Below, in pieces: positions 16,715-35,764 of a DNA stretch of 64,000 bases (positions are counted from its first letter, which is position 1; each line of letters opens with the position of its first letter). The notes beneath the pieces are model-generated. The model was not told the origin of the DNA. It worked only from the letters and a program-made list of their open reading frames with translations, and searched no databases. The stretch is from an uncultured Clostridia bacterium (lineage in GTDB: Bacteria; Bacillota; Clostridia; Christensenellales; CAG-138). Both the position numbers and the translations under genes were made by a program. Location: positions 47,618 to 111,617 of the forward strand of contig CALVLD010000003.1 of assembly GCA_944336475.1 (NCBI GenBank). The letters are read 5' to 3'.

Positions 16715-16720
16715 AAAATT

Positions 16721-16752
16721 GGGAACCTTTGCATGGGCTGCTGCGTTTTATT
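16721..16752 (+). promoter_or_regulatory. ECF-sigma-like promoter, copy A
   Basis: GGAACC(16722-16727)-16nt-CGTT(16744-16747); near-identical copies at 18889 and 35764. Confidence 0.65.
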
Positions 16753-16754
16753 AT

Positions 16755-16856
16755 TGAGAAGGGAGTCAAGGACTCTGCTTTCTCTCTTTCCTCCTCCTTC
16801 TGATTTGTTGGTGAAACTCCCGGGTGCGTGTTTACACTCGGGAGTTTCATCTTGTT
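16755..16856 (+). ncRNA. Candidate sRNA A (hairpin, anti-SD tract, terminator)
   Basis: 5' hairpin GAGAAG-GGAGTC/GACTCT-TTTCTC, single-stranded TTTCCTCCTCCTTCTGAT, long hairpin GTGAAACTCCCGGGTG/CACTCGGGAGTTTCAT. Confidence 0.55.
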
Positions 16857-16935
16857 CAAAGGCGAGGAACAGGGCGCAGGCCCTGCTCCTCTGAAGTTGG
16901 GTCATTCGAAGATCCCGTCAAAAGGCTTCTTCGAA

Positions 16936-17115
16936 TCAGCGTGAACGGTAGCTTCCGCAGAGGCTTTCATCCGCAGGCTTGCCCGTGTGACTGTGACAAT
17001 CACAGCAGGGCTGAACCTCGATCCGTGAGAGCTTGCAGTAGGAGCCATTGTCATTGAATCGGCAGCTTGTCACCTGACAGCCGATCGTTTGACATCCGAT
17101 CTTCTCCTGTGTCAT
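16936..17115 (-). CDS. DUF1540-type small Cys-rich protein
   Basis: IGCQVTSCRFN...CKLSRIEV...CGSY pattern; RBS GAAAGGA before ATG 17115. Confidence 0.8.
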   Translation of the reverse strand: MTQEKIGCQTIGCQVTSCRFNDNGSYCKLSRIEVQPCCDCHSHTGKPADESLCGSYRSR

Positions 17116-17163
17116 AAGATCGATACCATCCTTTCGCTCGACTTGTTCCACGGGAACGATAAC

Positions 17164-17192
17164 AGTATGTGAAATCAAGGGGTGCGCTATGC
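17164..17192 (-). promoter_or_regulatory. Sporulation sigma-G/E-type promoter for the DUF1540 gene
   Basis: GCATA-18nt-CATACT on the minus strand; overlaps the ribU terminator hairpin. Confidence 0.5.
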
Positions 17193-17199
17193 ACCCCTT
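17177..17199 (-). terminator. Terminator of the ECF S-component gene
   Basis: AAGGGGTGC-gctat-GCACCCCTT hairpin just after stop 17221. Confidence 0.6.
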
Positions 17200-17220
17200 G
17201 GGCATGGAAATAATTGAATT

Positions 17221-17793
17221 TTATTTGACGATCCTGAGCTTTAGCAGCTTGCCAACGGCCTTGTACAGGAGGAATGTGAGCACGGCGTTTACGCCTGCCT
17301 TTATCGCATTGAAAGCGATTATGTAGGGCATGAGGTTCCATACTGTCCCCTGCGCCGCCTTGTAGTCGCCGCCTATAAAGAGCGGCGTCATAAAGTGGTT
17401 GAGGGGGATCATTGTGACTACCATGGCAATCGTGCCTGCGCAGAGTGCCAGCACGGCATGCTTCAGTGTGCGACGCTCGCCACGGTAGATGAGCCCTGCG
17501 ACTATCACGAATGCGCCGGTCGCTATGAAGTGCATCAAGATGCCTATCCAGCCGCTCCCTGCAGACACGGTGACGCCCTGTAAAACGCACACGACAAACG
17601 TCAGCACGAGCCCCCAGACGGGACCGTACATGAATGCGCCTATGAATATGGGAACATCTGCCATGTCATACTCGAGGAAGCCGAGCTGCGGAAATATCGG
17701 AAAACGTATCAGAAGCATCAGTACAATAGACATTGCCGCAAGTATAGCAAGCTTGACTATCCTGTCAACGGCGTTACGAATGGTGTTTTTCAT
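17221..17793 (-). CDS. ribU: ECF transporter S component, riboflavin (RibU-like)
   Basis: FLEYDMADVP.FIG.F.YGP, multi-TM, IAFNAIKA; FMN riboswitch upstream. Confidence 0.85.
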   Translation of the reverse strand: MKNTIRNAVDRIVKLAILAAMSIVLMLLIRFPIFPQLGFLEYDMADVPIFIGAFMYGPVWGLVLTFVVCVLQGVTVSAGSGWIGILMHFIATGAFVIVAGLIYRGERRTLKHAVLALCAGTIAMVVTMIPLNHFMTPLFIGGDYKAAQGTVWNLMPYIIAFNAIKAGVNAVLTFLLYKAVGKLLKLRIVK

Positions 17794-17869
17794 AAAAATA
17801 GCCTCCGCATAGTATAAATTCGCTCCGTAAAAGCGGAGCGAACGCAAAGGCTGTGCCAATGTGAAGTTC

Positions 17870-18012
17870 CGCCTCTCCCGTCCGGACTGTAACCGTCGGC
17901 ATCGGAATCACACCGATTCAGCACACCCCTATACGGGCGGCTCGCGGGCTTTTGTGGGACTTGCCCCCACAGTTCACCGCCGGTAGGGAATCACACCCTG
18001 CCCCGAAGCTGG
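17870..18012 (-). promoter_or_regulatory. FMN riboswitch (RFN element)
   Basis: Minus strand CTTCGGGGCAGGGTGTGATTCCCTACCGGCGGT...AGCCCGCGAGC...GTGTGATTCCGATGCCGACGGTTACAGTCCGGACGGGAGAG matches the RFN consensus. Confidence 0.95.
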
Positions 18013-18136
18013 TTCATTATAGCACATGCGCGATCCCAATGCAATCCGTGTATGCATTGGAATGTCGACAAATTTTCTGTTCTCTTTCTGCTATCTGCCT
18101 GCATCATCAGACAATTCGATGCTATAGTTGTTTTCC

Positions 18137-18790
18137 GCTCCCCTGTTCAAAGTCTTGCTTTGACAGCCCCCTTTGCACGAGGGAGCCTGGAGAGTACGCT
18201 ATTCGTTCAGGGAGCCATTTTGGGGTTGCAATGCGGTAGCTGATTTACAATCCTCGTCGGCAGCACAAATCCACCTTGCGCAAAGGGAAATGGCACGGCG
18301 AAGCTCACACCCCAACAGCCTCCCTTGTGCAAAGGGAGGTAGCACGGCGTAGCCGTGACGAAGGGATTGTAGGATGGCGTTGGTTAGTATATTCTTAGAA
18401 CATTGATAAGCTGCTGTTTCTTTCGTTTTCTGATGGGTATTTTCCTCTTTAGAAAATATGTTGCTATAGTTTCTTTCCAATCCCGCAGTCAGCTTCGCTG
18501 ACATCTCCTTTTACACAAGGGAGCCGGTTGGGGTGTGCAATTCATGGCAGACGACCTATTGGGGTTGCAGTGCAATAGTTGCTTTACAATCCCTTGGTCA
18601 AAGCTCCGCTTTGACGGCTCCAATTTGCACCGGGGAGCGTGGCCGACGGAGGCAATGAAAGAAAAAGGAACAGGGACGGCTCCCGTTTACACAAAGAAAC
18701 CTTTTTGGGGGTATGCTGACGGCTCAGTTTGCACAAGGGAGGCTTTTTTGGGGTGCTGACAGCTCCTTTTGCACGAGGGGGATGCTGACC
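18137..18790. repeat. Cluster of about 8 degenerate REP-like palindromes (GCTGACnGCTCCCTTT(G/A)CACAAGGGAG family)
   Basis: Units near 18162, 18270, 18318, 18498, 18613, 18674, 18715 and 18755; includes an inverted doublet 18318-18525. Confidence 0.75.
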
Positions 18791-18888
18791 GACAGCAAAC
18801 TGCAACAGGTGCATCAGTGCATAGTTTATTTATGGGCTGCGCAACGCCGAATGTTGATTTTGCCATTTCGGTATATTTCGCAAAAAGT

Positions 18889-18920
18889 GGGAACCTTTGG
18901 CCGGGTTGCTGCGTTTTATT
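18889..18920 (+). promoter_or_regulatory. ECF-sigma-like promoter, copy B
   Basis: GGGAACCTTT-ggccgggt-TGCTGCGTTTTAT; GGAACC-16nt-CGTT. Confidence 0.65.
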
Positions 18921-18922
18921 TA

Positions 18923-19135
18923 CGAAAGCATGTGGCGGACGCCGTTATCAGCATCGGAAAACCCGTTGGCGCAGGGCGTGTGCAGAGCTTCTTTGGGCAA
19001 TGTGTTCGGGTGTCACCCTCTCACCTGAGCGATACGCCTACCAAACATCTAAGCCTACGTGCATATGAAAACAGTGCAGCAAAAACAGGCAGCATCCCCC
19101 GTCCAAAACGGACAGGGGACGCTGTCTCTTTTTGG
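18923..19135 (+). ncRNA. Candidate sRNA B (multibranch, about 210 nt)
   Basis: Closing stem GCATGTGGC/GCCTACGTGC, inner GGCGTGT/ATACGCC, hairpin CGGGTG/CACCTG with loop TCACCCTCT, terminator GGCAGCATCCCC..GGGGACGCTGTC-TCTTTTT. Confidence 0.45.
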
Positions 19136-19145
19136 AGCTATCTCG

Positions 19146-20412
19146 TTATTCCTCTGGCAAATCGTACTTGGGAACCATTAGGCTGAGCAGGAGCGCTATA
19201 AGGAAGGATACTGCGAGCGAGCTGCCGAGCAGATTTTTCAAAAGCTGAGGATGGCGGAGTATGCGCAGGGTCATCTCGATGCCTATGCCTATGGAAAGCG
19301 CTATGCCGAGTATCATCTTATTGCGGTAGTTGAGCGGCTGCTCCGGTATGAGCTGTATGCCGAACATTGTTATCGCCGCAAACACCGTTACGGTAGCACC
19401 GCCAAGAACGGGCTTGGGTATGGCGGTCATCACCGCACCGGATTTGGGGAAGAAGCGAACAATGAGCATCAACCCGCCCACAATAAGGAATATACGCTTG
19501 GCGGCAGTCTTGGCGGCTGCGATAAGGCCGACATTCCAACTGTACGAATCGGTAGGTAAGCCTCCCATGCATGTGTCGATCATGCAGCAGATGCCCTGAC
19601 CCTTTATGGCATCGCCGGGCTCCTAATCCGTCGCCTCCCTGTGGAATGCACCCATTGTGGTGGAGGAAACATCGCCTATAGTCTGCACCGCCTGCACTAT
19701 GTACACGAGTATCATCAGTATGCAGTGCTAACCATGCCTGATTCCTGACTTCGTCAAAGCTTATGAGCCCCATGCCTGCAAATGCGCCAAAATTCTCCAT
19801 TATGAGCGCGACTATGCAGCCTGCTGCAATGCCCATCATCATACCCGACACACAAGCATGCCCTTGCAAAACAGACTGAACCCGAGCGTAACCACGGGCG
19901 TAACTATCGCCAATATCTACAGCGGTGCATAACCGAACTCTGCCGCATCCGCATTGCCGCCGCCCATATAGCTTAGCGCAGTCTTATACGGCGACAGGCC
20001 TATGCGCAGCACGGCCGTACCGCCGGCGACTACCGGGGGGAGAGTTTGCGTATCCTGCCAATGAACAGGCCGATAAATACGGAGGCAAAACCTGCAACGA
20101 GCCGCACACCGAATATTACGGCGATGCCGTACCGAGCGCCTATCATGAGCGGTGTGGGCATGTATGCAAACGCCACTCCTATCACGCTCGTCAGACCCAT
20201 GCCAAAGCCAAATATCGGGAACTCCTGAAGCATCGTTGTCAACCGGCCTATGAGCATTGAGTTTGGGTCAACGGTATCATATCCTCCGCCGGCAAATTCC
20301 GCGCACTCGCAATGAGCATGGGCGGAGTGATTTCGCCCAGCCTGTTTTTACCTCCATAGCGACCTGAGCGTCGGGTGATGCTTCGACCATAGGCGTTTCT
20401 TTTTTGCCGCAT
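19146..20412 (-). pseudogene. Fragmented xanthine/uracil permease (NCS2 family)
   Basis: Pieces in different frames: TTMLQ.FPI..FGMGL.SVIGVAFAY; degraded NCS2 signature 'LPTDSYSWNVGLI'; IPKPVLGGAT.TVF. Multiple stops and frameshifts. Confidence 0.85.
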
Positions 20413-20552
20413 TCCCTCATCATATGAACACTTTCGTTTGATTGGGCTCGGCACATTATTCCATTGGGAGCGTAAAATGTATTAAGCAATATTGTCAAGA
20501 CACCGTTGCGAGATAGGATGGGTGCATTTCATGCTGCTGTTTGATGGAGAGC

Positions 20553-23500
20553 CTATCCGTTGGTCTCATAAATCGCATCCGCCCTCGCCTCAAGCTCGGC
20601 AAAGCGTTCCTCAGACAGACTGTACTGGTAGCGCAGATAGCGCAAAGCCGGCGCCTGCCGTGACTTTATGCAGCTGCGCAGCGAATCCACCTGTCCCTGC
20701 CATGCGCTGTAGGAGCGGATCTGATTAGGCCAGCGGCTAATATGCCGAGTCATCTCCGGCTCTATTTCGGAGACGAGTTTATCGTATATGGACAAGGCTC
20801 TCTCGGGAGCAAACACATATTTGACTATGTATATGTATCGGACGATGAACTGCTCCCTCCAGCCGGCATTCTGGTTAACGGCGCAGTAGAGATCCATATT
20901 TGTCAGGCTCCCGTGCGCCGCCGCAACGCCGTTCGGGTTGAAATACAACGACAGCAGATTAGTGTTAATGTTATTGCCGTGCATGGCAAAGTCGGAGTCA
21001 TAGAGTATAGCCCGCCACTTTACGGAATAATCCCTTGCACGCCAGTACTTCTGGTTGAACATATCGCCGTCGAAAAAGTATGTGCGGCAGCAGAGATAGT
21101 CCATGAGAGAGTTGACATCGAGGTATTCGCAGAGACGTTCATAGTTGCTCTCATACGAGAAGAAGTTTGAATAGAGGTTTTCCTCCGTCTGGCCGCTACG
21201 GCAGAACTCACGCACCCAGTACCACTCATAGTTGGTACCGGCGAGCGTCGTGCCGTTGCGCTTGATTATGTCGATGTTGTTGCGGTCGATGCCATATCGG
21301 GAGACGAAGAAATCTTCATTGATGTTCTCCTTCAGGTCGTAGAGCCCCCAATACTCACCGTTTATGTACACGGCGACGGGCTGCACATAGGATACGTCGA
21401 CATTCAGACCCTGACAAATACGGCTGATGTAGGCGTCGCGCACCCTGGCATAGAGGGCGTCCTGTCCGCCGTTTCTAAGCAACAGTGAACGAAACGAGGT
21501 TATGTCGCAATCCTCAAAGAATGGATAATCCATGCTGCTCCTGCCGTAGCCGGCGCGGAAATATAGCGCAAGGGACTTCTGCGGATAGAGTGCGGTGGAA
21601 GCGCCGCTCACACGGACGCCTGCGCCCGTGTATGTGGCGAGCTTGCCCTCCTCGTAGTACTCCATAAAACATGGAACCTCATCCCCCTTTATCACACTGC
21701 CCGTCTCGGTCTGCGATGCGGTATACATGGAGTTGAAATCCGACCGCGAGAGCGACAGGCATACTACCGGCACGGAATGCTCGTCCTCAAAGAGGAATGT
21801 GTGCGCCGCCTCGGGGCTGTTGACAAGCCCGGGATGCACGGCTATAGCCCGTATCACGGTGTTGGAATCGATGCTTATGGGCTCTGCGTATATTGGAGAC
21901 GCTTCCGTCGGGGCGGAGCCGTTGGTGGTGTAGTGTATCACGGCGTTCTCTGTGGCGCAGGTGAGCTCGAGCATAAACGGTGCGTCGCAGAACAGCTCAA
22001 TATGGGAGAACACAGGCTCCGCAGCATATCCGCTCAGCGGCTCTGCATTGGCGCCCCCCCTGGTCGGCCTGTCAAAAAAAACACGCTCGCCCGTGCGTGT
22101 GCCGTTTGCCCTGCCCGATGTCACGCCCACTCCGGTGACGCCCGTTTCAAACACATCTCTGAACGACCCGTCCGGCGCAACAAGGTATAGCGTATCGCCG
22201 CTGCCGCCTATGCCTATCGGAGCAGTAGACGAGCTTTGCTCATCCGAGGCAGTAGAGCAGTATATCACAGTATAGCCGTTTGCATATATGGAGAAGTTTT
22301 TAAGGCTGAATTTATTCGGTTCCTCCGGATTGTCCGTCAGATACCAGCCGTCAAGCACGAGCGAGGATGATGAGCCGTTGTACAACTCTACCCAGTCCTT
22401 TCTGCCGCTGCGCGCCTCCGACACGCCGGAGACCTCGCTTATGTAGACTGAATCGGCATCGAATCCGCCCAGCCCCACGGGCGAGGCAAAACCGTATGTG
22501 GTATTGGGCGCATTAGGGGTCGGCACGGTGTAGTAGCGTAGCTCGTCCCCCTCGCTTCTGCCTATGGAGACATTGTCGCTCAAACCCTCGGGTATCAGCA
22601 TGGAGTCCATGCGCATGCCGTCATAGTTGAATAGGAATATCCCCTCGTCCACGCTTGATATTCTGAAGGATGCGTGAAGCTCCCCTTCCGAGGAATCCTT
22701 GCCGGAGAGGAATATGAGCAGATACCCTCCGGCGGGTATCTCGACATTGGGAAGCGCCCACTTGGTAGGGTCGTTGCGGCGGTCGGAGAGGTAGTAGCCC
22801 AGAAGGGAGACGGGGGCATCGGTAGTGTTCCAAAGCTCCACCCACTCGCATCTGTCGCCCTCGGCATCGATTATGCTGTAGAGATTATCCGGCAGAAACT
22901 CGTTTATGCGGATTGGATCGGACGAAGTCATATCCGTCCACTCAATGGCGGCAAACGTGCTTGTGCTGTTTGCGCTGCCCTTGGTGATATGCGTGGTGTA
23001 GCAAACCCCCTCCTCCGTTACCACGGCGGAGACACCGTCCGGCAGAGCAGGGTCAAACTCCAGAGTATCGGTGCGTTGGAACAGATTGTTGAACAGATAT
23101 ATCGCACTCTCGGAGGAGCTGACCTTGAAGGAGGCGTTTAGCGTGTCCTCCTCGTCCACTCCGCAGAGCTCCACAACGACATACTCACCGGCGCCGAGGG
23201 TCATCTCCGGGAAACGCCACTTGTCGAAGTGCTCAGGGTCGTCGGAGAGGTAGTAATCCTCAAGCTGAATGGGCTCCGCAGTATGATTCACGAGCTCAAC
23301 CCAGCCCTGAGCTCCGTTCACTATCTCGGTGAAGCGGAGCGCATCGACGGGGTCTATCACTGCAATCGCATCGGAAAGCTCGTCGACTATCTCAATGTTG
23401 GATTCGGCAAATGTTGGATATGCCGAATAGCCGTACGTACCGTCATCCCGCCTTGCATAGGATACATCGGGGTTAAGCTCCGGCACCTCTACATGCTGTA

Positions 23501-23966: not shown

Positions 23967-24032
23967 CGGGTGATTATACTACATAATTCGGATGAAAGGA
24001 AGAGGAAAGATGTAAACATTCGGTGAATATGC

Positions 24033-26286: not shown

Positions 26287-26295
26287 TCAGTCCTC

Positions 26296-27467: not shown

Positions 27468-27477
27468 CCGATATGTT

Positions 27478-27814
27478 TTGAGCGACCCGTAAGCCGAGTT
27501 CTGTTTATGTGACCATCTATCTCGACTGCGTGTTTCCACGCAGCTCATGCGATTACGGGGAGCGTGACGGACAGCCATTAAATGCTCCCATTTCAATCTT
27601 GCTCCGGGTGGGGTTTACATGGCACGGTATGTTGCCATACCGTCGGTGGGCTCTTACCCCGCCTTTCCATCCTTGCCGCAGATGCGGCGGTCTATTTCTG
27701 TTGCACTTTCCTTAAAGTCGCCTTCACCGGACGTTATCCGGCACCCTTGTCCTGTGGAGCTCGGACTTTCCTCACCGCAATTTTTCGTGCGGCGCAGTCA
27801 CTTGGGTCACTCAA
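27478..27814 (-). ncRNA. rnpB: RNase P RNA (type A-like)
   Basis: Minus strand GAGGAAAGTCCGAGCT ... AAAGTGCAACAG ... GGTAAGAG ... ACAGAACTCGGCTTA; P1 GAGTGACCC/GGGTCGCTC. Confidence 0.95.
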
Positions 27815-27823
27815 ATTTTAACA

Positions 27824-28552: not shown

Positions 28553-28588
28553 TCCCCACCAAAGGTGGATTTATTTTCGGCCCTGATG

Positions 28589-29350
28589 TCACAACGCGCG
28601 GAGGGGGCTCCGCTCCGTCCTTGACAGTATGAATTCCACTTCCGGAGCCATGCTGCGCACCTTAGCAATGAGCGGCTCCAGAACGACGCGCTCGGTCTCA
28701 TAGTGACCCGCAACCACCACGCAGAGCCCGGCATGCGCCGCTTCTATCGCATGGTTATGCTTGCACTCGCCCGTTACATACACGTCCGCACCTGCATTCA
28801 ATGCGTATGCATACTCCGCACCGCCTGCACCGCCGCATACGCATGCCGTGCGGAGGAGCTTATCCTCACCCGCTATGCGTACCCTTGTGCCCAGCGTCTG
28901 CTCCACCCTGCGGGCAAACTCGGTCAGCATCATCGGAGTCTTGAGCCTCCCTATGCGCAGCATATTGTCGGGCGGCAAGGGAACCTCGTCCTCAATGCCC
29001 AACAGCCTGCACAGCTCCGTGTTTACGCCTCCCTCGGCACAATCAAGATTGGTGTGCGCCGCAAACAGTGCGATGTCGGAGCGTATCAGCCTGAACACCG
29101 GACCGTCAATTGGATCATCCGGCATAAGACGTTTTATCGGCCTGAACAGGAGGGGATGGTGCGACAGCACAAGGTCGCAGCCAAGCTCCTCCGCCTCACG
29201 CACTGCGGCCTGCGTACAGTCGAGTGCGACGAGCACACGGGAGATATCCTCCCTGTATGTGCCCACGATAAGCCCCGAATTGTCAAAGCCGAGCGCCATG
29301 TCGGGAGGCGCAACGGTACCCATCATTGAGACAAAATCGCACAGCTTCAT
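28589..29350 (-). CDS. Nif3-like dinuclear metal center protein
   Basis: DNSGL.VG, HHPL.F, HTNLD, GHYETE. Confidence 0.92.
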   Translation of the reverse strand: MKLCDFVSMMGTVAPPDMALGFDNSGLIVGTYREDISRVLVALDCTQAAVREAEELGCDLVLSHHPLLFRPIKRLMPDDPIDGPVFRLIRSDIALFAAHTNLDCAEGGVNTELCRLLGIEDEVPLPPDNMLRIGRLKTPMMLTEFARRVEQTLGTRVRIAGEDKLLRTACVCGGAGGAEYAYALNAGADVYVTGECKHNHAIEAAHAGLCVVVAGHYETERVVLEPLIAKVRSMAPEVEFILSRTERSPLRAL

Positions 29351-29351
29351 T

Positions 29352-30083
29352 TCATATTCCCTCTCCGTCGGCAAGACGGTCGATAAGCATGTTTGTGGCC
29401 TCTATGGTTCTTACGAGCGACGCCACTTCTCGCCCATGCAACCTTGCTTTTGCAAGCTCCCTTTCATAGACCGAGCGGAAGTGGAGCAGCAACGGCATGA
29501 GCTCGGGCTCTCGCTTTTGCACCATCACCCAGCCGAAGCGATAGAAGTCGGCCGGAAACCACTCGGGAACCCCTATCCCACCGCCGTACCTTGCGGCAAT
29601 GACCTGATAGTATCTGCCCGAGTCGAGCACTACACGCTCGTCTGCGATGCCGTAGCCTGAGCGCACAAGGAATCCCCTCAGCTCCGCCTCGCCTCGCATG
29701 GGCTGCATCACTATCAGCTCCGCACGACGCGCCGCATCGCAGCCCCGTTCGAGCATGCCGGCGATGAGCTCGCCTCCCATGCCGCACACGGCGATTTTGA
29801 AATCCGCCCCGCCTACGAGCGGCAACAGTCCCTCAAGCCCGTCGGCACGGCGCACGGCGATGTTGAGCCCGGTATCTGCGGCAAGCGTCCGCACCTTTTC
29901 GACCGACGCAGCACTGATGTCGGATGCCAGCACTCGCTTTGCTCTGCCGGATCTGAGCAGTGCGGCAGACAGATACCCATGGTCGCATCCTATGTCGGCA
30001 ATGACATCGGCGGAACCGAGCATCTCCAGCACGGCGATCAGCCGCAGGCCAAGCGGCACGATGCGATGGCTACAATACCTCAT
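29352..30083 (-). CDS. trmK: tRNA (adenine22-N1)-methyltransferase
   Basis: ADIGCDHGYL, GMGGELI, MQPM; upstream of Nif3. Confidence 0.85.
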   Translation of the reverse strand: MRYCSHRIVPLGLRLIAVLEMLGSADVIADIGCDHGYLSAALLRSGRAKRVLASDISAASVEKVRTLAADTGLNIAVRRADGLEGLLPLVGGADFKIAVCGMGGELIAGMLERGCDAARRAELIVMQPMRGEAELRGFLVRSGYGIADERVVLDSGRYYQVIAARYGGGIGVPEWFPADFYRFGWVMVQKREPELMPLLLHFRSVYERELAKARLHGREVASLVRTIEATNMLIDRLADGEGI

Positions 30084-30124
30084 GTTACCATTATACCTTA
30101 TAGTATGGGATTTGTCAATCAGCA

Positions 30125-30168
30125 GAGAGGGTCCCCGAAGCACAAAACTTGCTTCGGGGACCCTCTCG
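30125..30168. terminator. Long perfect hairpin downstream of the M23 gene
   Basis: GAGAGGGTCCCCGAAGCA-caaaact-TGCTTCGGGGACCCTCTC. Confidence 0.65.
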
Positions 30169-30190
30169 CCATATTAGGAGGTAGACCATC

Positions 30191-30952
30191 TCAATCCGTA
30201 TGGGTGAAGGTTACATATTGGGTGGGATCCTTGGGTTCATCGTCGATGTAGAGTTCAAAGTGCAGGTGGCTCTCTTCCGCACATTCGGAGAGTGCAGTGT
30301 CCCCGATATAGCCTATTACGTCACGGGCATTTACCGCCTGCCCCTCCGTTACCGGGGGCTCCTCCTTGAGGTTGGAATAGACCGTCACCATTCCGCCGCT
30401 GTGGCGTATTACCACCGTTACCCCAAGCATATCGTCGGCATACACCCTCTCCACGGTGCCCTCTGCGACGCTTCGCACCTCCGTACCCTGCGGTGCGGCA
30501 ATATCGACGCCGGAGTGGGTCATCCACTGGTTGAGCGTCTCCGAGTATATGAGGGAGTCCATCGCAAACACCCGGATTATATTGCCCTCCACGGGTGCGT
30601 GGAGCACTATGGGCGCAGGGGTCGTCTGTACCGCAGGGGTCGTGGGCATGGGGGCTATCGTCTTTTCCGGCATTACGGTAGGCAGGGGTGTCCTTGCCGG
30701 TCGTGGGCCCGTTGTGACCTGTGTGGGCTGTGTCGTAGGCACTGTCACATCGTTGAGCGTCTGATCCTGCGACTGCCGCACGGGATCGCTCGGCTCCTCC
30801 CCTCCGGTGAATATCAGCGCAGCGGTCGTACCTATCACCGCAATACACAGCCCAAGGGCTATGTAGAGCCCGTTCTTTCTGAAAAATATGGATGAACGCA
30901 GCCTCAACTGCCTCCATCTGCGCCTTTGCTCGGCTTTTTTATCCATATGCAT
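30191..30952 (-). CDS. M23 peptidase-domain membrane protein, SpoIIQ-like
   Basis: N-terminal TM, T/P-rich linker, YSETL.QW.THSGVDI, HLHFE; sigma-F-like promoter. Confidence 0.75.
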   Translation of the reverse strand: MHMDKKAEQRRRWRQLRLRSSIFFRKNGLYIALGLCIAVIGTTAALIFTGGEEPSDPVRQSQDQTLNDVTVPTTQPTQVTTGPRPARTPLPTVMPEKTIAPMPTTPAVQTTPAPIVLHAPVEGNIIRVFAMDSLIYSETLNQWMTHSGVDIAAPQGTEVRSVAEGTVERVYADDMLGVTVVIRHSGGMVTVYSNLKEEPPVTEGQAVNARDVIGYIGDTALSECAEESHLHFELYIDDEPKDPTQYVTFTHTD

Positions 30953-30976
30953 CGTCCCTTCTTTGTCTTTCGGTGG

Positions 30977-31006
30977 TATTATTGACACTTAATCCGTCCG
31001 CTATAC
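30977..31006 (-). promoter_or_regulatory. Sigma-F-type promoter
   Basis: GTATA-15nt-GTCAATAATA versus the consensus GYATA-N15-GGnnAnAHTR. Confidence 0.55.
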
Positions 31007-31066
31007 TTGAAATGGCTTCAAAAAATTGATATAATCAGGGAACGCAATCCGGGAGGTTTGTCTTTT

Positions 31067-32062
31067 ATGAAAGCGACAAAAACCATACTAGGGATATTGT
31101 TTGCGTTGCTTACGCTCGCCGCATTCATTGCCCCGTTCAAATTCGTGCCCGAAAAGTTCATGGCAGATGACTATGAGGCAACGTATGAACGGCTCTCCTC
31201 AGGCGGTATGGAGGTGGACGAATCATATGTCGCCGCCCGCGTGGATGCGACTGCAAAGGAATACTTTCCCATTACATTCACCACCTCGCTTCTCATTGCC
31301 TGTGTTGGGGTGTTAGTCGTTCGTTTGCTCTCGCTTGTTCCGCCTCACGGCATGGGAGGATTCAACCTCTTCAACCCCATCGCCCTCCCTCTCATTGCGA
31401 TAATGGCGCTTGGCATGCGTTTTTCGATCTCGCTCACGCTTGATGCGATCTCAAGTCCGTCGGTCATCGAGTTTCGCAGCCTCACATCGGATTTTGCCGC
31501 CTCAATGGACGGCAGCGCTCGCCCGTGGCAGCTCTTCATAGTCGTTCCCCTGCTGCTCGAAGTCACATTCCGCTGCATTATCCCCGGCTTCCTTGAGCGT
31601 GTGCATGCCGTTGTCGGCATAGCGGTCTCCGTGGTCGCATATTCGCTCGTGATGCACGCTGCGTTCCGTGCCTATGGCGTATGGATGACGGGCTCTACGG
31701 CATCTGCCTTCGTTGCGCTTATCATTGCCGCCGTGATGGGGATTTTGCTCATGCTTGTAACATGGCGGCTGCGTTCGGTAATACCTGCAATGCTCATGCA
31801 TATTATCATAGTACACTCCTCTGTGCTCGTGCCCGGCTTTGCAGGTCTCGGAGCGTTTGCGCTGCCGCTTGCTATAGCGATGGTCGTGCTGCCGTTTGCG
31901 GCGATAATAATACTGCCCGTTCTCGGCACAAAGCATGCCGTATTCCGTGCGGACTTCCCGTTTACCGCCCATCACAAGCGCATGGACGCCCGTCTTGCAG
32001 CGCTCGAGCTGCCACGCCACAGGGCGACGAAGGGGGATACGGATGTGTCCGAATCCGCATGA
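31067..32062 (+). CDS. CPBP (CAAX/Abi) family intramembrane metalloprotease-like protein
   Basis: Multi-TM; PLLLEVTFR (EE..FR degenerate to LE), H, and SVIPAMLMH motifs; RBS GGAGG. Confidence 0.7.
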   Translation: MKATKTILGILFALLTLAAFIAPFKFVPEKFMADDYEATYERLSSGGMEVDESYVAARVDATAKEYFPITFTTSLLIACVGVLVVRLLSLVPPHGMGGFNLFNPIALPLIAIMALGMRFSISLTLDAISSPSVIEFRSLTSDFAASMDGSARPWQLFIVVPLLLEVTFRCIIPGFLERVHAVVGIAVSVVAYSLVMHAAFRAYGVWMTGSTASAFVALIIAAVMGILLMLVTWRLRSVIPAMLMHIIIVHSSVLVPGFAGLGAFALPLAIAMVVLPFAAIIILPVLGTKHAVFRADFPFTAHHKRMDARLAALELPRHRATKGDTDVSESA

Positions 32063-32102
32063 GCAGGCGAAGCTCGCCGCATGAGCAGGCGAAGCTCGCC
32101 GC
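32055..32102 (+). repeat. Perfect 22-bp tandem duplication
   Basis: CCGCATGAGCAGGCGAAGCTCG at 32055-32076 and 32077-32098, plus CCGC. Confidence 0.95.
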
Positions 32103-32646
32103 TCTGGCATTTCTGAAGGCGCACGGCTTCCCAGAGGCAGAGCCTGGCTGCATATCCTCCATGAGTCCGATGGCGGAGCTGTCCACGGCCCTGCCAATGA
32201 GACTCGGGGTTGACAATAAAAGCGAATTGTTGTACAATATCTCCCCCGTTGAACGGGAGCTGTTTGAAAGCATCCGCCAGGCAAATGGGTACATCAACTT
32301 CCGTCTGAGCGATGTGGCATATGAACGGTTCTGCCGCCGTGCAGCGGAGACGCTGCCGCCGAAGGTTCAAGCTGATGTCATACCTGTTGGCAGGCTGAGC
32401 GCCGAGTATCTGCACGCAAGGCTGCTCACCGTTGCCTTCACCGCCAAGCCAGGCTTTCACTGCAATGCGGCGGTTCGTCGTGCGCTGTGGATGTGCTTCT
32501 CGCTCCTGGATACGGCCATTGCCGAAAGGCGGCGCTCTTTGTGCCTTGTGTCAGTTGCAGAGGCGTTGGATGATCCCTCCGCAATATGCAGGGATGCTGC
32601 GCTTGCAATGGCCGGCGTAATCGGAAATTATATTATTGTCAAATAG
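32059..32646 (+). CDS. Hypothetical protein resembling non-catalytic ArgRS parts (N-terminal domain plus DALR-like)
   Basis: LSTALPMRL...NGYINF.L and EYLHARL resemble ArgRS N-domain and anticodon-domain motifs; no HIGH/KMSKS. Confidence 0.5.
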   Translation: MSRRSSPHEQAKLAALAFLKAHGFPEAEPGCISSMSPMAELSTALPMRLGVDNKSELLYNISPVERELFESIRQANGYINFRLSDVAYERFCRRAAETLPPKVQADVIPVGRLSAEYLHARLLTVAFTAKPGFHCNAAVRRALWMCFSLLDTAIAERRRSLCLVSVAEALDDPSAICRDAALAMAGVIGNYIIVK

Positions 32647-32658
32647 AGAGGTTTGAAT

Positions 32659-33315
32659 ATGGTTATCAAATGGTTTGGGCATTCCTGCTTTTTGCTGACG
32701 AACTCCGAAGGGGTTTCTATACTAACCGATCCGTGTGCTCCTGCCGTGGGCTTTGACCTCCACGACATCCCGTGCGATGCTGTTGCGGTCAGTCACGACC
32801 ACTTTGACCACAACTATATTGCTGCTGTATCGGGCGAGCCCGTGGTCGTATCCACAGTGGGCAAGCATGAGGTTGGGGGCGTGCGTATAGAGGGCTTTGA
32901 AGTGCTGCACGACAAACAAAACGGTGCCGTCCGTGGAAAGTGCGTGATGTTTGTGATTGAGATGGACGGCATCCGTGTGCTTCACGCCGGCGATATAGGG
33001 CAGCTCCCCTCGGAGGATTTCATAAAGGCCCTTGGGGACATCGATGTGCTCCTCGTCCCCGTCGGCGGCAAGTACACTCTTGACTATGCCGAGGCTCGTG
33101 AGCTTGCAAACATGCTCCGCCCCAGCGTTGTCATACCCATGCACTATCGCACCGCAAAGTGCAAGTTCAATGACATAGACGATGTAAACAACTTCATCTC
33201 CACTGTAAGGGATTGCAAGATCCATCGCCTTAACGACTGCGAAGCCACCCTTTCCCGTCAGAGCCTTGGCGAGGACAGGGTGCTCGTGCTTGAGCCCTTC
33301 GACCCCGAAAGGTGA
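32659..33315 (+). CDS. MBL-fold metallo-hydrolase
   Basis: WFGHSCF, SHDHFDH, HAGD, IPMHY. Confidence 0.9.
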   Translation: MVIKWFGHSCFLLTNSEGVSILTDPCAPAVGFDLHDIPCDAVAVSHDHFDHNYIAAVSGEPVVVSTVGKHEVGGVRIEGFEVLHDKQNGAVRGKCVMFVIEMDGIRVLHAGDIGQLPSEDFIKALGDIDVLLVPVGGKYTLDYAEARELANMLRPSVVIPMHYRTAKCKFNDIDDVNNFISTVRDCKIHRLNDCEATLSRQSLGEDRVLVLEPFDPER

Positions 33316-33333
33316 TTTCCCATCGACACACAT

Positions 33334-33363
33334 GGCTCTCCGTACCTGCGGAGAGCCTTTATT
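33334..33363 (+). terminator. Intrinsic terminator
   Basis: GGCTCTCCG-tacctg-CGGAGAGCC-TTTATT. Confidence 0.7.
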
Positions 33364-33487
33364 ATGGCTGATTTTATAACTAAAAATATAAAATTTTCGC
33401 TCTTGACTTTTGAGATAAAAGGGCTATCATTACTGCGGTGTCTCCGCAGGCACAGCTCAAATAATCGGAAGAAAGGTAGTGTTTCCA

Positions 33488-33820
33488 ATGCAGCTTCTGG
33501 TCATCACCATAGATAAATGCGAGGAGTTTCTCGATACCCTCGCCGGCCTTAAGGCGCACGGCATGAACGGCATTGTGTTCCAGTCGACAAGCCTCAAGCA
33601 CGCCCTGCTCCACAGCACCGTTGATGCAGCGCCGATATTCGGCTCCCTCAGCAAGGTAATGAACAATGATTTTGAATCAAGCCATACCGCCTTCCTTCTT
33701 CTCAACGACGATCAGATAGAGCATGCAAAGCGTGTGGTACGTCGCAACACGAACGGCCTTGGCAGGAAGGGCGTAATGTTCACCATCCCCATAATTTCAT
33801 ATGAGGGCATAGAGGAGTGA
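33488..33820 (+). CDS. Small PII-like (GlnB-fold) protein
   Basis: About 110 aa; LLVITI..., G...F.S, C-terminal G.GVMFTIPI...EGI typical of PII-like transporter partners. Confidence 0.6.
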   Translation: MQLLVITIDKCEEFLDTLAGLKAHGMNGIVFQSTSLKHALLHSTVDAAPIFGSLSKVMNNDFESSHTAFLLLNDDQIEHAKRVVRRNTNGLGRKGVMFTIPIISYEGIEE

Positions 33821-33824
33821 TATT

Positions 33825-35084
33825 ATGACAGCGCTTTTGATGATGGGCTTTGCCATGGTAGGCGGCCTTGCGCTTTCGCGCTTGATGAAGCTCTTCAATC
33901 TGCCCAATGTCACCGGCTTTCTCATCGCCGGTCTACTCATCGGTCCAAACCTTTGGGAGCTCGTTACGGACGGCAAGTTCGGCGGCTTGATAACCCGCGA
34001 GGGGCTTGAGAGTCTCAATATCATAACCACCGTTGCGCTTGGCTTCATCGCCTTTTCGATAGGCGGCGAATTCAAACTGAGCAACATCAAAAAACTTGGC
34101 GGTCAGATAATCGTGATCACATTCGTGCAGGCCATGACCACGGTACTGTTCGTGATGGCGGCAATGTTTTTCGTGCGGGGCGAGTGCGAAAACTACATCG
34201 CCCGTGCACTGCTGCTCGGTGCCATTGCAGCGGCGACCGCCCCTGCCGCAACGCTCATGGTCGTGCGTCAATACCGGGCAAAGGGCCCCGTTACGGACAC
34301 GCTGCTCCCCGTCGTTGCATTCGACGATGCAGTCGGTCTCATGATATTCTCCGTCTGCTTTGCGCTTGCTGAGGTCTTTGCCGCCGGCAAGGAGCTGACC
34401 TTTGCGGCAACGGTGCTTGCCCCCCTGCGTGAGATAGGGCTCTCGCTTGTGATAGGCGCTGCGCTCGGCGCATTGCTCTCCCTCTGCTGCAAGTGGTTTC
34501 ACTCCAACGGCAACCGCCTCATGCTGATGATCGCAGCAGTGATAATGGGCGTTGCCCTCTCCGAGGTGTGGGAGCTCTCGTCGCTGCTCGTCTGCATGAT
34601 GATAGGAGCCCTCTTCGCAAACCTGAGGAAGGACTCCATCGTCATACTCGACCTCTGCGAAAAGTGGACTCCGCCCGTGTTCATGCTGTTCTTCGTTATA
34701 TCGGGTGCGGAGCTGGACATCTCCATAATTCCCCAGGTGGGTGTTGCGGGCATCGTGTATGTGCTCGTGCGTGCCGTCGGCAAGTACTTTGGCGCCTTCC
34801 TGGGCGCATACATATCCAAGAGTGAAAAAACTGTGCGCCACTATCTGGGGTTTACGCTGCTTCCGCAGGCAGGCGTTGCGATAGGCATGGCGCAGATGGT
34901 CGCCGCCTCGGAGGATCTGTCCTCCGTTGCCGGACAGGTCGTTACGGTAGTGCTCTTTGCAACGCTCGTGTATGAGCTCACCGGCCCCATAATCACCAAG
35001 ATCGCCCTTTTCAAAGCCGGCGAGATCGACTCCACGCTGCAAAAAACGCAAAGGCCGTTTGCACGATTTGCCAAAAAGGGCTGA
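33825..35084 (+). CDS. Cation:proton antiporter (CPA2-like)
   Basis: LPNVTGFLIAG..IGP, ATAPAAT, FDDA, PQAGVAIG. Confidence 0.9.
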   Translation: MTALLMMGFAMVGGLALSRLMKLFNLPNVTGFLIAGLLIGPNLWELVTDGKFGGLITREGLESLNIITTVALGFIAFSIGGEFKLSNIKKLGGQIIVITFVQAMTTVLFVMAAMFFVRGECENYIARALLLGAIAAATAPAATLMVVRQYRAKGPVTDTLLPVVAFDDAVGLMIFSVCFALAEVFAAGKELTFAATVLAPLREIGLSLVIGAALGALLSLCCKWFHSNGNRLMLMIAAVIMGVALSEVWELSSLLVCMMIGALFANLRKDSIVILDLCEKWTPPVFMLFFVISGAELDISIIPQVGVAGIVYVLVRAVGKYFGAFLGAYISKSEKTVRHYLGFTLLPQAGVAIGMAQMVAASEDLSSVAGQVVTVVLFATLVYELTGPIITKIALFKAGEIDSTLQKTQRPFARFAKKG

Positions 35085-35110
35085 CGCATATTTCCCGAAC
35101 ACAGATAGAC

Positions 35111-35146
35111 AAACACCCTGCCCGACGGATGACGGGCAGGGCGTTT
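35111..35146. terminator. Bidirectional terminator
   Basis: AAACACCCTGCCCG...CGGGCAGGGCGTTT between convergent genes. Confidence 0.75.
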
Positions 35147-35158
35147 ATTGGGTGTTGT

Positions 35159-35557
35159 TTACAGCAGGTTGACCATGCTTGTTGAAATATATGTATACTC
35201 GTAGATGATCCCGGTGACCAGGTTGCTAAACAGAGCGATCATAAGTATCACCGCCAGCAGTGAAAGCCCTATTGCGATTGCACTGATTATTATTCCGGCC
35301 TTGGCAAACGTTCTGCTCGACGTTGCAAACGCCTTTGCCTGATTGTAGGCTATTATGCTCAGGACAAGACCTATAACGGGCATTACGAAGCTCAGCACAA
35401 ACCCTGCTATCGAAAGAGTCTTGGCATCATCCTGGGGAGTCTCACGATGGTTATCCGAATATGCGGATTGGGGCTGGGCAGAATTCAGCCGCATGCCACA
35501 GTTGGGGCAGTAGGATGTGTTATCATCACATTGGAAACCGCAGTTTCTACAGAACAT
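35159..35557 (-). CDS. Zinc-ribbon + DUF4190-like membrane protein
   Basis: MFCRNCG...CPNCG, 'GLVLSIIA', 'AKAGIIIS'; has its own TTGACA/TAGACT promoter near 35594-35621. Confidence 0.8.
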   Translation of the reverse strand: MFCRNCGFQCDDNTSYCPNCGMRLNSAQPQSAYSDNHRETPQDDAKTLSIAGFVLSFVMPVIGLVLSIIAYNQAKAFATSSRTFAKAGIIISAIAIGLSLLAVILMIALFSNLVTGIIYEYTYISTSMVNLL

Positions 35558-35629
35558 AGCTGTTTACCTCCACATGGAATTACACTATGTTCAGTCTACT
35601 ACAGAACTGCGGAAGTGTCAATACCCCTG

Positions 35630-35730
35630 CCAAAACACAGCAAGACCCGTGCGGGGGTAACACGGGTCTACTGTATAATATCAGAAAGGTGGTTTCCACG
35701 AGCTTCGGGCTCCTCGCTCCCGTCGCTCTA
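35630..35730 (-). ncRNA. Candidate sRNA C (hairpin, anti-SD tract, terminator)
   Basis: Minus strand GAGC.../GCTC stem, AAACCACCTTTCTGAT tract, terminator AGACCCGTG/CACGGGTCT-TGCTGTGTTTT. Confidence 0.55.
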
Positions 35731-35732
35731 CA

Positions 35733-35764
35733 CATATAACGCAGCAAGCATGGAAAAGGTTCCC
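35733..35764 (-). promoter_or_regulatory. ECF-sigma-like promoter, copy C
   Basis: Minus strand GGGAACCTTT-tccatgct-TGCTGCGTTATAT; GGAACC-16nt-CGTT. Confidence 0.65.

What the first reader, a model, noticed from the sequence alone, without database searches (positions are those of the whole stretch)
16721..35764. Three orphan ECF-like promoters, each driving a small anti-Shine-Dalgarno RNA: candidate sibling-sRNA regulon
Seen: the motif GGGAACCTTT-N8-TGCTGCGTT(T/A)TA occurs three times, at 16721 (+), 18889 (+) and 35764 (-). Spacing is identical (GGAACC-16-CGTT) and each copy has an A-tract upstream. None is followed by an RBS-bearing gene; each leads into 100-210 nt of structured sequence ending in a strong hairpin. 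Copies A and C share CC(T/A)CCTT(T)CTGAT just before the terminator, and copy B shows TCACCCTCT in a hairpin loop. Known: -35 GGAAC / -10 CGT(T) is the typical ECF sigma promoter form, and C/U-rich loops are how Firmicutes sRNAs occlude RBSs. Inference: one ECF sigma (not encoded in this window) controls a dispersed family of translation-repressing sRNAs. I recognise no named family.
Basis: partly seen in the sequence, partly recalled or inferred. Interest (0 to 1): 0.85.

Follow-up and report, generated by a model that had tools for sequence, protein, structure and literature searches.

The report
ECF-sigma-driven sibling small RNAs
Two of the three flagged sites are genes for small non-coding RNAs switched on by an envelope-stress-type (ECF) sigma factor in an uncultured rumen-type Clostridia bacterium, a design well known in Gram-negative bacteria but, as far as my searches show, not described for this group.

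Summary
The 30-base motif occurs exactly three times in the window and in none of 100 shuffles. Its core is a genuine ECF-type promoter. The genome has 9 such sites against 0 for the backwards control. One sits in front of an ECF sigma / anti-sigma operon on another contig, and five precede exported, membrane or ATPase genes.

Units A (16722-16856 +) and C (35763-35632 -) belong to one small-RNA family. Each has the ECF promoter, a short 5' hairpin region, a conserved unpaired C/U-rich tract and an intrinsic terminator, with no conserved ORF. A fourth sibling (D) lies on contig C31.

A sequence model found 27 such loci in 4 of 50 sampled genera of the family, 13 of them not used to build it. 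It found none in 145 genomes of 41 other families. Only the promoter and the C/U block are conserved.

Unit B (18890-19136 +) shares the promoter only. It has no relatives and ends at a terminator shared with a convergent gene. It is an orphan transcript of unknown role.

Expression, the transcription start and the targets are untested. No RNA run holds the organism, and my target scans did not beat controls. Rfam has no match.

The parts
16721..16750 (+). ECF-type promoter of unit A: -35 element, 16-nt spacer, -10 element, with an A-rich stretch just upstream. It starts 7 nt after the stop codon of the zinc-ribbon membrane-protein gene 16016-16714.
   Evidence: Exact motif match. Highest score in the genome-wide matrix scan. 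The same arrangement is seen after the orthologous gene in sister species G022.
16753..16856 (+). Unit A RNA, about 100 nt. The start is inferred, not mapped. It comprises a 5' hairpin region, an unpaired C/U-rich tract at 16787-16806 and a terminator stem at 16810-16851.
   Evidence: Fold z-score -5.05. Module folds. An orthologue in G022 keeps the promoter, a 14-15 nt part of the C/U tract and the terminator, while the neighbouring protein is only 47% identical. Family model hit 33.7 bits, E 1.8e-9 (A was a training row).
18889..18918 (+). ECF-type promoter of unit B.
   Evidence: Exact motif match. Matrix score 52.2, fourth of the genome.
18921..19136 (+). Unit B, an orphan structured transcript of about 215 nt (start inferred). 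It has a hairpin with a C-rich 9-nt loop at 19013-19021 and ends at the bidirectional terminator 19090-19124.
   Evidence: Fold z-score -4.44. The terminator is called on both strands. The family model covers only its promoter. No relatives were found. There is no SD-preceded ORF; an SD-less 32-codon frame starts at 18930.
35735..35764 (-). ECF-type promoter of unit C.
   Evidence: Exact motif match. Matrix score 53.2.
35632..35732 (-). Unit C RNA, about 100 nt (start inferred). It comprises a 5' hairpin, an unpaired C/U-rich tract at 35692-35673, a terminator stem at 35674-35633 and a U-rich tail.
   Evidence: Fold z-score -5.07. Terminator call. Orthologue in G022. Family model hit 43.3 bits, E 1.8e-12 (training row).
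35593..35621 (-). Sigma-70-like promoter of the downstream zinc-ribbon/DUF4190 gene (35557-35159). It is not part of unit C. It is listed because it separates C from that gene.
   Evidence: 10 of 12 consensus matches. Pfam hits of the gene product.

Best explanation
The three motif copies are promoters of one autoregulated ECF sigma factor. Its gene lies on contig C10 of the same genome, followed by a membrane anti-sigma-like gene and a GLUG-motif gene. Besides exported and lipoprotein-like genes, this sigma drives a non-coding arm.

Units A and C, plus a third sibling D on contig C31, are about 100-nt trans-acting small RNAs. Each has a 5' hairpin region, an unpaired C/U-rich tract that resembles the 16S anti-Shine-Dalgarno sequence, and an intrinsic terminator.

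When the sigma is released from its anti-sigma, presumably by an envelope signal, the RNAs are made. The C/U tract then pairs with purine-rich ribosome-binding regions of a set of mRNAs and lowers their translation. This damps the synthesis of exported proteins, as the sigma-E small RNAs do in Gram-negative bacteria.

What is shown by sequence: the promoter identity, the autoregulated sigma, the regulon, the non-coding nature, the modular architecture, and selective conservation of the promoter and the C/U tract. What is inferred: transcription, the start site, trans action, pairing to ribosome-binding sites, and the identity of targets.

Unit B is a separate ECF-driven structured transcript with no assignable role.
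For: Promoter:
- The genome has 9 sites of the core pattern against 0 for the backwards control.
- One site is 50 nt upstream of an ECF sigma (Pfam Sigma70_r2 and r4_2; NCBIfam sigma70-ECF 92.3 bits against a cut-off of 42.9). An overlapping 284-aa gene with a membrane segment follows it.
- The sigma orthologues in G022, G146 and G082 carry the same motif upstream, 3 of 3 examined.
- 53 of 201 family genomes have the pattern. It is concentrated in genera g1, g6 (14 of 14) and g4 (9 of 9), while controls are mostly 0.
- Of 33 sites read in G146 and G082, 26 precede an SD-led ORF within about 90 nt whose N-terminus looks like a signal peptide or membrane anchor (my reading by eye). 2 precede the sigma gene, 4 precede non-coding units, and 1 precedes a 134-nt leader.

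Small RNA:
- G022 keeps A in synteny (pheT, zinc-ribbon gene, then A) and keeps a C-type copy. Only the promoter, part of the C/U tract and the terminator are conserved, while the neighbouring protein is 47% identical.
- 10 of 14 g6 genomes hold one copy of a 20-nt C/U block with at most 2 mismatches, against 0 for the control.
- In their alignment 22 or more consecutive columns are invariant, against a mean identity of 44%.
- All 10 form a 5' hairpin at the same place from different arm sequences, and 8 of 10 have a terminator right after the block.
- A sequence model of 14 rows recovered 13 further loci. In total 27 loci lie in 4 of 50 sampled genera, and 0 in 145 genomes of 41 other families.
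- In the 28-row alignment only the promoter and the C/U block are conserved.
- Of the 11 new hits tested for an ORF, 8 have no SD-led ORF of 50 or more codons within 350 nt. 2 have one at 210-216 nt, and 1 has a 50-codon frame that overlaps the RNA itself.
- Hfq is encoded in the genome. CsrA was not found.
Against: - There is no expression evidence of any kind. No listed RNA run holds the organism, so transcription, 5' ends and sizes are unknown.
- No target was identified. A duplex scan of 6170 candidate start regions gave best energies no better than shuffled seeds.
- The one attractive candidate, the ribosome-binding region of a TlpA-like exported protein on G000:C15, does not clearly keep its complementarity in 4 orthologues read by eye.
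- The family model is sequence-only and includes the promoter. Part of every score therefore comes from the promoter, and there is no formal covariation test. RNAalifold on 5 rows gave only 6 pairs with changes on both sides, and an alternative pairing of the 5' end with the C/U block.
- The terminator of A has a poor U-tract.
- C sits upstream of a same-strand gene, as do a few relatives, so a leader function is not excluded for those.
- The clade is narrow (4 genera) and uncultured.
Confidence: 0.6

Rival explanations
1. The units are cis-acting parts of neighbouring transcription units, not trans-acting RNAs. A would be the 3' untranslated end of the zinc-ribbon gene, and C an ECF-driven leader or attenuator of the downstream zinc-ribbon/DUF4190 gene.
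For: - The promoter of A starts 7 nt after the stop codon of 16016-16714 with no terminator in between, and the same order is kept in G022. The upstream mRNA therefore probably ends at the terminator of A.
- C lies about 175 nt upstream of a same-strand gene.
- Two relatives (G137, G084) have an ORF 210-216 nt after the promoter.
- Unit E on G000:C28 and the second g6 unit are followed by exported-protein genes.
Against: - A, D and the G022 pair have no same-strand gene downstream. The two G022 units converge on each other.
- Of the 11 new members tested, 8 have no SD-led ORF within 350 nt.
- The downstream gene of C has its own sigma-70-like promoter after a strong terminator.
- Neighbours differ between genera while the C/U block stays, which fits a diffusible RNA.
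- An internal promoter at the 3' end of a gene is itself a known way of making trans-acting small RNAs (recalled: MicL).
Confidence: 0.15
2. The promoters are real but the transcripts are by-products. ECF promoter copies landed in intergenic DNA next to existing terminators and give RNAs with no function. This is the default reading for unit B.
For: - B has no relative in the sister species, plasmids or phages.
- The family model sees only its promoter.
- Its terminator belongs equally to the convergent gene.
- It lies next to a field of dispersed palindromic repeats, a region prone to rearrangement.
Against: - For A, C and D, the C/U block is conserved across 4 genera, beyond the promoter and in otherwise diverged sequence. 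Each member also has a dedicated terminator and a 5' hairpin.
- B folds much better than shuffles (z -4.44), which is unexpected for random intergenic DNA. A third of that energy, however, is the shared terminator.
Confidence: 0.15
3. The RNAs act by binding a protein, or by mimicking the 3' end of 16S rRNA, rather than by pairing with specific mRNAs. Alternatively they encode a tiny peptide.
For: - The 5' parts are purine-rich with GGA-type motifs next to or inside hairpins.
- RNAalifold pairs the 5' end with the C/U block in g6, which suggests an internal SD/anti-SD-like switch.
- No specific target stood out.
Against: - No CsrA gene was found in a genome that is 96% complete.
- No start codon is conserved between A and its G022 orthologue, or between C and its orthologue (my reading).
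- The invariant part is the pyrimidine tract, not the GGA motifs.
Confidence: 0.1

Closest known systems
[quoted passage not shown]
   Same: An ECF sigma that autoregulates its own operon also drives small RNAs of about 100 nt, ending in intrinsic terminators, that (in those systems) repress mRNAs of envelope proteins. Here the protein-coding regulon is likewise made of exported, lipoprotein-like proteins.
   Different: - There is no sequence or Rfam relation.
- The host is a Clostridia-class organism without the outer-membrane proteins that are the classic targets.
- Several siblings share one C/U-rich tract.
- Targets and trans action are not shown here.
C/U-rich or C-rich seed small RNAs that cover Shine-Dalgarno sequences: RoxS/RsaE and S. 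aureus RNAIII-type UCCC loops in Firmicutes, and the CcsR 'cuckoo' sibling RNAs with a CCUCCUCCC motif in Rhodobacter (all recalled, not read here)
   Same: A pyrimidine-rich unpaired element complementary to ribosome-binding sites is the only strongly conserved part. There are multiple sibling copies per genome, and the promoter depends on an alternative sigma factor (as for CcsR).
   Different: - Here the tract lies in a linear stretch between the hairpins and the terminator, not in several hairpin loops.
- The promoter type is ECF.
- There is no homology to those families in Rfam.
ECF RNA of Bacillus subtilis: a sigma-X/sigma-M-dependent 750-nt antisense RNA to yabE (review PMC4152353, passages read)
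   Same: A non-coding RNA under ECF sigma control in a Firmicute.
   Different: That RNA is a long cis-antisense transcript acting on the gene opposite. The units here are short, lie in intergenic DNA, overlap no gene and form a sibling family.

Membership tests
ECF (group 4) sigma-dependent promoter | -35 element containing AAC and -10 element containing CGT, with a spacer of 16-17 nt (recalled textbook definition) | tested here: met
   All three window copies and the 6 other genome sites have the same spacing and the same two elements.
ECF (group 4) sigma-dependent promoter | The same motif stands upstream of the cognate sigma/anti-sigma operon (autoregulation) | tested here: met
   The site at G000:C10:39687 (-) precedes a 173-aa ECF sigma and an overlapping 284-aa membrane protein. 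The same is seen in G022, G146 and G082. Of about 6-7 small ECF-like sigmas in the genome, only this one has the motif upstream.
ECF (group 4) sigma-dependent promoter | Transcription starts a few bases after the -10 element and depends on the sigma | not testable with these tools
   No RNA run holds the organism.
Any Rfam family | Covariance-model score at or above the curated gathering score | tested here: not met
   There is no hit at A, B or C at the gathering threshold. At E up to 10 only chance-level hits of 14-20 bits appear.
Trans-acting base-pairing small RNA | Own promoter and intrinsic terminator, with no conserved ORF | tested here: met
   The U-tract of A is weak.
Trans-acting base-pairing small RNA | A short unpaired seed conserved more strongly than the rest | tested here: met
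   In g6, 22 or more columns are invariant against a mean identity of 44%. Across 28 rows of 4 genera, the C/U block and the promoter are the only conserved blocks.
Trans-acting base-pairing small RNA | Defined mRNA targets with complementary sites, conserved with the seed | tested here: inconclusive
   The duplex scan did no better than shuffled seeds. Motif look-ups gave only weak candidates. The complementarity of the candidate TlpA-like gene is not clearly kept in orthologues (by eye).
Sigma-E-type non-coding arm (MicA/RybB/MicL, FoxI) | Repression of envelope-protein mRNAs and feedback on the sigma response | not testable with these tools
   This needs genetics or reporter assays. Only the regulon context (exported proteins) fits.
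The A/C/D sibling family defined here (model R1) | Promoter, C/U block and terminator all matched by the model over nearly its full length | tested here: met
   For A and C (training rows): model span 1-153 and 1-158 of 160. NOT met for B, whose span is 1-42 of 160, the promoter only.

The most novel reading that the evidence does not exclude
A family of uncultured rumen-type Clostridia has evolved, independently of Gram-negative bacteria, a non-coding arm of an ECF envelope-stress response. Two to four sibling small RNAs per genome each present a mimic of the 16S anti-Shine-Dalgarno tract. Together they throttle translation of the lipoprotein and exported-protein genes that the same sigma factor switches on, forming an incoherent feed-forward loop. 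Unit B and the second g6 unit would be further, lineage-specific recruits to this arm.
Probability: 0.3. Interest if true: 0.65.

Novelty: new member of a known kind. Interest (0 to 1): 0.55.

Why it matters
Small RNAs driven by ECF sigma factors are a textbook feature of the envelope stress response in Proteobacteria, and one was recently extended to Fusobacteria.

For Firmicutes, three sources bear on this. The review I read names only a long cis-antisense RNA under ECF control (PMC4152353, passages). The C. difficile start-site study states that ECF consensus sequences are unknown there, and it assigns non-coding RNA starts only to SigA, SigD, SigB or sporulation sigmas (PMC7438776, passages). 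My two literature searches listed no trans-acting ECF-dependent small RNA in Clostridia. Subscription journals are not covered, and supplements were not opened.

If the family acts as proposed, pairing an ECF regulon with a repressing RNA arm would be a recurrent solution that also arises in bacteria without an outer membrane. It would also give a compact, sequence-defined regulon (sigma, anti-sigma, about 6 to 18 promoters, 1 to 4 small RNAs) in abundant but uncultured rumen organisms.

The promoter-plus-seed signature is simple enough to be used for annotation.

Tried and rejected
Expression. The look-up of sequencing runs listed no RNA holder. I laid two faecal metatranscriptome runs and two DNA holders on window 16000-35999. 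The RNA runs covered only conserved pieces such as RNase P from other organisms, so this gives nothing on expression either way.

DNA similarity. BLAST of unit A against 200 family genomes found nothing outside the own genome. It missed even the true G022 orthologue, so it was too insensitive. BLAST of unit B against G022 gave only chance hits with E of 0.03 or more. Unit B had no match in plasmids or phages.

Metagenome scan. A promoter-plus-seed pattern gave 2 loci, both coding-looking chance hits. It returned 7 orthologues at 48-54% identity, all from uncultured rumen or gut Clostridia assemblies. The remaining 17 hits, at 22-33%, were unrelated ECF sigmas.

Strict pattern for short units over all 240 family genomes. 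This found only A and the two G022 units, plus 2 hits (G052, G157) that I did not follow up. C was missed because the pattern was too narrow.

Targets.
- The RNAduplex scan of 6170 start regions with the A, C and B-loop tracts gave minima of -36.0, -30.0 and -39.8 kcal/mol. Shuffled tracts, tested on a quarter of the regions, gave -30.6 to -33.3, -23.4 to -30.7 and -35.0 to -41.8. There is no signal.
- Reverse-complement look-ups in g6 found only the RNA genes themselves at 0-1 mismatch.
- Look-ups in the own genome at up to 3 substitutions gave many ordinary ribosome-binding sites.
- The TlpA-like exported protein on G000:C15 looked complementary to all three siblings. The orthologous start regions in G022, G146, G082 and G114 do not clearly keep this, by eye. 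I rejected it as unsupported.

Structure. RNAalifold on the MAFFT alignment of 10 g6 rows predicted only a 5-bp stem with no covariation, because the variable hairpins were misaligned. On 5 rows it gave 18 pairs, 6 with changes on both sides. I ran no formal covariation test with the count of structure pairs.

Other rejected ideas.
- Mobile-element end: there are no flanking repeats at the units, and each locus is single-copy.
- Repressor operator: the sites lie at a fixed distance upstream of ORFs together with the sigma's own gene, which fits a promoter.
- CsrA sponge: no CsrA gene was found.
- Small ORFs: none is conserved.
- The second g6 non-coding unit as a relative of B: it occurs in only 2 of 14 genomes and shows no likeness.

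Supplementary tables of PMC7438776, which list promoters of non-coding RNAs, were not opened and could bear on the novelty claim.

Full report
**The observation**

The 30-base pattern of the finding matches at 16721-16750 (+), 18889-18918 (+) and 35735-35764 (-). No mismatches occur, although two were allowed, and none of 100 dinucleotide-preserving shuffles gave a match. Reading the sequence confirms the upstream A-rich stretches and the downstream units.

As RNA the units fold far better than shuffles. The z-scores are -5.05 for A (100 nt), -5.07 for C (99 nt) and -4.44 for B (218 nt). A and C each carry a C/U-rich tract (16787-16806 and 35692-35673) that is unpaired in the fold and sits directly 5' of a long terminator stem. 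B shows a C-rich 9-nt hairpin loop at 19013-19021.

Rfam has nothing at the three places. This holds at the gathering threshold and at E up to 10, where only 14-20 bit noise appears. The other Rfam features of the window are ordinary:
- an FMN riboswitch at 17866-18014 (-)
- a SAM riboswitch at 35841-35963 (+)
- RNase P RNA, raiA RNA and two tRNAs.

**The motif is an ECF promoter with a regulon**

The window is G000:C3:47618-111617 of a 1.8-Mb assembly in 44 contigs, 52.9% G+C and 96% complete. The core of the motif is the -35 hexamer, 16 bases, and the -10 tetramer followed by W-T-A. It occurs 9 times in the genome and 0 times when read backwards.

- **Sigma operon:** one site lies about 50 nt upstream of a 173-aa protein with Sigma70_r2 and r4_2 domains. 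This protein passes only the generic ECF model of NCBIfam (92.3 bits against a cut-off of 42.9). It is followed by an overlapping 284-aa protein that has a membrane segment and no family hit, and then by a 397-aa GLUG-motif protein.
- **Protein-coding sites:** five sites precede SD-led genes. Four have signal-peptide and lipobox-like N-termini, and one is a MoxR-like ATPase.
- **Non-coding sites:** three sites are A, B and C.

The genome has about 13 sigma-70-family genes, of which 6-7 are small and ECF-like. Only the one on C10 has the motif in front of it.

**The promoter in relatives**

Of 201 genomes of the family, 53 have the core pattern. All 14 genomes of genus g6 have it (5 to 18 sites each), as do all 9 of g4 (1-3 sites) and the one other species of the own genus (5 sites). 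Backwards controls are mostly 0.

In G022, G146 and G082 the sigma orthologue carries the motif upstream. I read 33 sites in G146 and G082:
- 26 precede an SD-led ORF within about 90 nt with a signal-peptide-like or membrane-anchor N-terminus. Many of these are paralogous lipoprotein-like genes.
- 2 precede the sigma gene.
- 1 has a 134-nt leader before a helix-turn-helix gene.
- 4 lead into non-coding units.

In other genera the single or few sites again mostly precede lipoprotein-like genes. Sigma orthologues at 48-54% identity were found only in uncultured rumen or gut Clostridia assemblies.

**A and C are members of a small-RNA family**

The sister species G022 keeps the order pheT, zinc-ribbon membrane-protein gene, unit A. 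It has a C-type unit convergent to A at the same locus. Between the two species the zinc-ribbon protein is only 47% identical (109 of 232 residues). In the non-coding units, however, the promoter elements, 14-15 nt of the C/U tract and the terminator are retained while the rest has diverged. BLAST could not even find the orthologue.

In g6, 10 of 14 genomes have one copy of a 20-nt C/U block with at most 2 mismatches, against 0 for the control. In 8 of those 10 my pattern found the promoter upstream; one further genome has a variant -35. In the alignment of these ten, 22 or more consecutive columns are invariant against a mean column identity of 44%.

Folding the modules separately shows two things:
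- All ten have a 5'-proximal hairpin at the same position built from different arm sequences.
- Eight of the ten have an intrinsic terminator directly after the block. The other two have an extra hairpin first.

A matrix scan of the own genome found a further sibling, D, at G000:C31:14449 (-). It has a variant -35, a 5' hairpin, a C/U tract and a terminator, and no gene downstream. The scan also found a partial look-alike, E, on C28 that runs into an exported-protein gene.

**Distribution**

I built a sequence-only model (R1) from 14 units, covering the promoter through the terminator.
- **Own genome:** it matches A, C and D over nearly the full length, E over 113 of 160 positions, and B and other regulon promoters over their first 37-56 positions only.
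- **Order sample:** in 151 genomes of the order it hit nothing in 145 genomes of 41 other families.
- **Family sample:** in 151 genomes of the family it hit 17 genomes in 4 of 50 genera. These were g1 (own plus 1 of 1), g6 (8 of 8), g17 (4 of 8) and g21 (3 of 4).

Thirteen full-length hits were not training rows. Each of the 11 I read has a promoter of this type, a C/U block and a terminator. A test for an SD-led ORF of 50 or more codons within 350 nt gave none for 8 of these 11. Two have one at 210-216 nt, and one has a 50-codon frame overlapping the RNA. One g17 genome has two copies in tandem. In the 28-row alignment the only conserved blocks are the promoter and the C/U block.

Caveat: the model contains the promoter, so its scores are not independent of it. 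I ran no formal covariation test. RNAalifold on 5 g6 rows gave 6 pairs with changes on both sides. It also suggested that the purine-rich 5' end can pair with the C/U block.

**Unit B**

B shares only the promoter with the family. No relative was found in G022, plasmids or phages. Its terminator (19090-19124) is called on both strands and also ends the convergent permease-like gene. It has no SD-led ORF; an SD-less 32-codon frame starts at 18930.

B lies next to a field of dispersed palindromic repeats. I read it as a real ECF-driven transcript of unknown and possibly no function.

**Mechanism**

What the sequence shows:
- an ECF promoter
- a unit of about 100 nt with its own terminator
- no conserved ORF
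- a single unpaired pyrimidine tract that is the only part under strong constraint.

That is the anatomy of a trans-acting base-pairing RNA. The tract is complementary to purine-rich ribosome-binding regions, in A perfectly to the core Shine-Dalgarno sequence and in the others with G-U wobble (my reading; the 16S 3' end is recalled, because rRNA is not assembled here). Hfq is encoded and CsrA was not found.

By analogy with the sigma-E small RNAs (MicA, RybB and MicL recalled; FoxI from the abstract of bioRxiv 10.1101/2022.07.29.501972), I propose that the RNAs repress translation of exported-protein mRNAs when the sigma is active. This step is inference.

I could not name targets:
- The duplex scan did not beat shuffled tracts.
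- The motif look-ups were unspecific.
- The best-looking candidate, a TlpA-like exported protein, does not clearly keep the complementarity in four orthologues (by eye).

**Expression**

No listed RNA run holds the organism. The two metatranscriptome runs I laid covered only conserved RNAs of other organisms. This says nothing either way.

**Comparison and novelty**

The kind is known: an ECF sigma with a non-coding, repressing arm, and sibling RNAs with an anti-SD-like seed.
- **Membership in a described family:** not met, because Rfam has no hit.
- **Firmicutes review:** the one I read names only the 750-nt cis-antisense 'ECF RNA' of B. subtilis as ECF-controlled (PMC4152353, passages).
- **C. 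difficile start-site study:** it says ECF consensus sequences are unknown there and ties non-coding RNA starts to other sigmas (PMC7438776, passages). Its supplementary tables were not opened.
- **Literature searches:** two full-text searches (listings and abstracts only) showed no trans-acting ECF-dependent small RNA in Clostridia.

I therefore file A and C (and D) as a new family of a known kind, restricted to four genera of an uncultured family. B I file as an orphan.

**Verdict**

It is right on the ECF promoter and on the A/C siblings, wrong on B as a sibling, and untested on function.
- Confidence is 0.6 that A and C are ECF-driven trans-acting small RNAs working through the C/U tract.
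- Interest is 0.55.

Noticed in passing
window 18100-18800, about 56546-56675, and many other contigs: A dispersed palindromic repeat family of about 20-40 nt units, sometimes in arrays with about 41-nt spacing (for example G000:C14:3332-3625). One 14-nt core with up to 2 substitutions occurs 82 times in the genome. Direct and inverted copies fill 18169-18796. The source assembly's contigs break there, and depth is about 3-fold higher. It looks like a REP/MITE-like element.
   Followed up: partly
window 19146-20260 (-): A permease-like gene (xanthine/uracil type by its look) appears split into several overlapping ORFs of 145, 183 and 75 aa in different frames. This may be a frameshifted pseudogene or an assembly error.
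   Followed up: no
window 17866-18014 (-) and 17221-17795 (-): An FMN riboswitch (102 bits) sits upstream of a membrane protein that looks like a riboflavin transporter. This is ordinary.
   Followed up: no
window 35841-35963 (+) and 36032-37228 (+): A SAM riboswitch is divergent from unit C and precedes metK. This is ordinary.
   Followed up: no
window 52587-52796 (-): A raiA RNA motif scores 172 bits. This is a known but functionally unresolved structured RNA.
   Followed up: no
G146:C101 (L062) and G082:C6 (L065): A second ECF-driven non-coding unit of about 110 nt has two C-rich stretches and a terminator, and a lipoprotein-like gene follows about 230 nt after the promoter. It is found in only 2 of 14 g6 genomes.
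   Followed up: partly
G000:C28:4552-4659 (-): Unit E has a weaker ECF-like promoter and a roughly 100-nt leader with a terminator-like hairpin, followed by an SD-led exported-protein gene. The family model matches 113 of 160 positions. It may be an intermediate between an mRNA leader and a free-standing small RNA.
   Followed up: partly
G138:C11 (L178 1371-1469 and 1502-1619): Two family members stand in tandem in one g17 genome. In G022 two members are convergent at one locus.
   Followed up: no
genus g6 (for example G146, G082): The ECF regulon is expanded to 17-18 promoter sites per 1.9-Mb genome. Most sites lie in front of paralogous small lipoprotein-like genes with near-identical 5' leaders.
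   Followed up: partly
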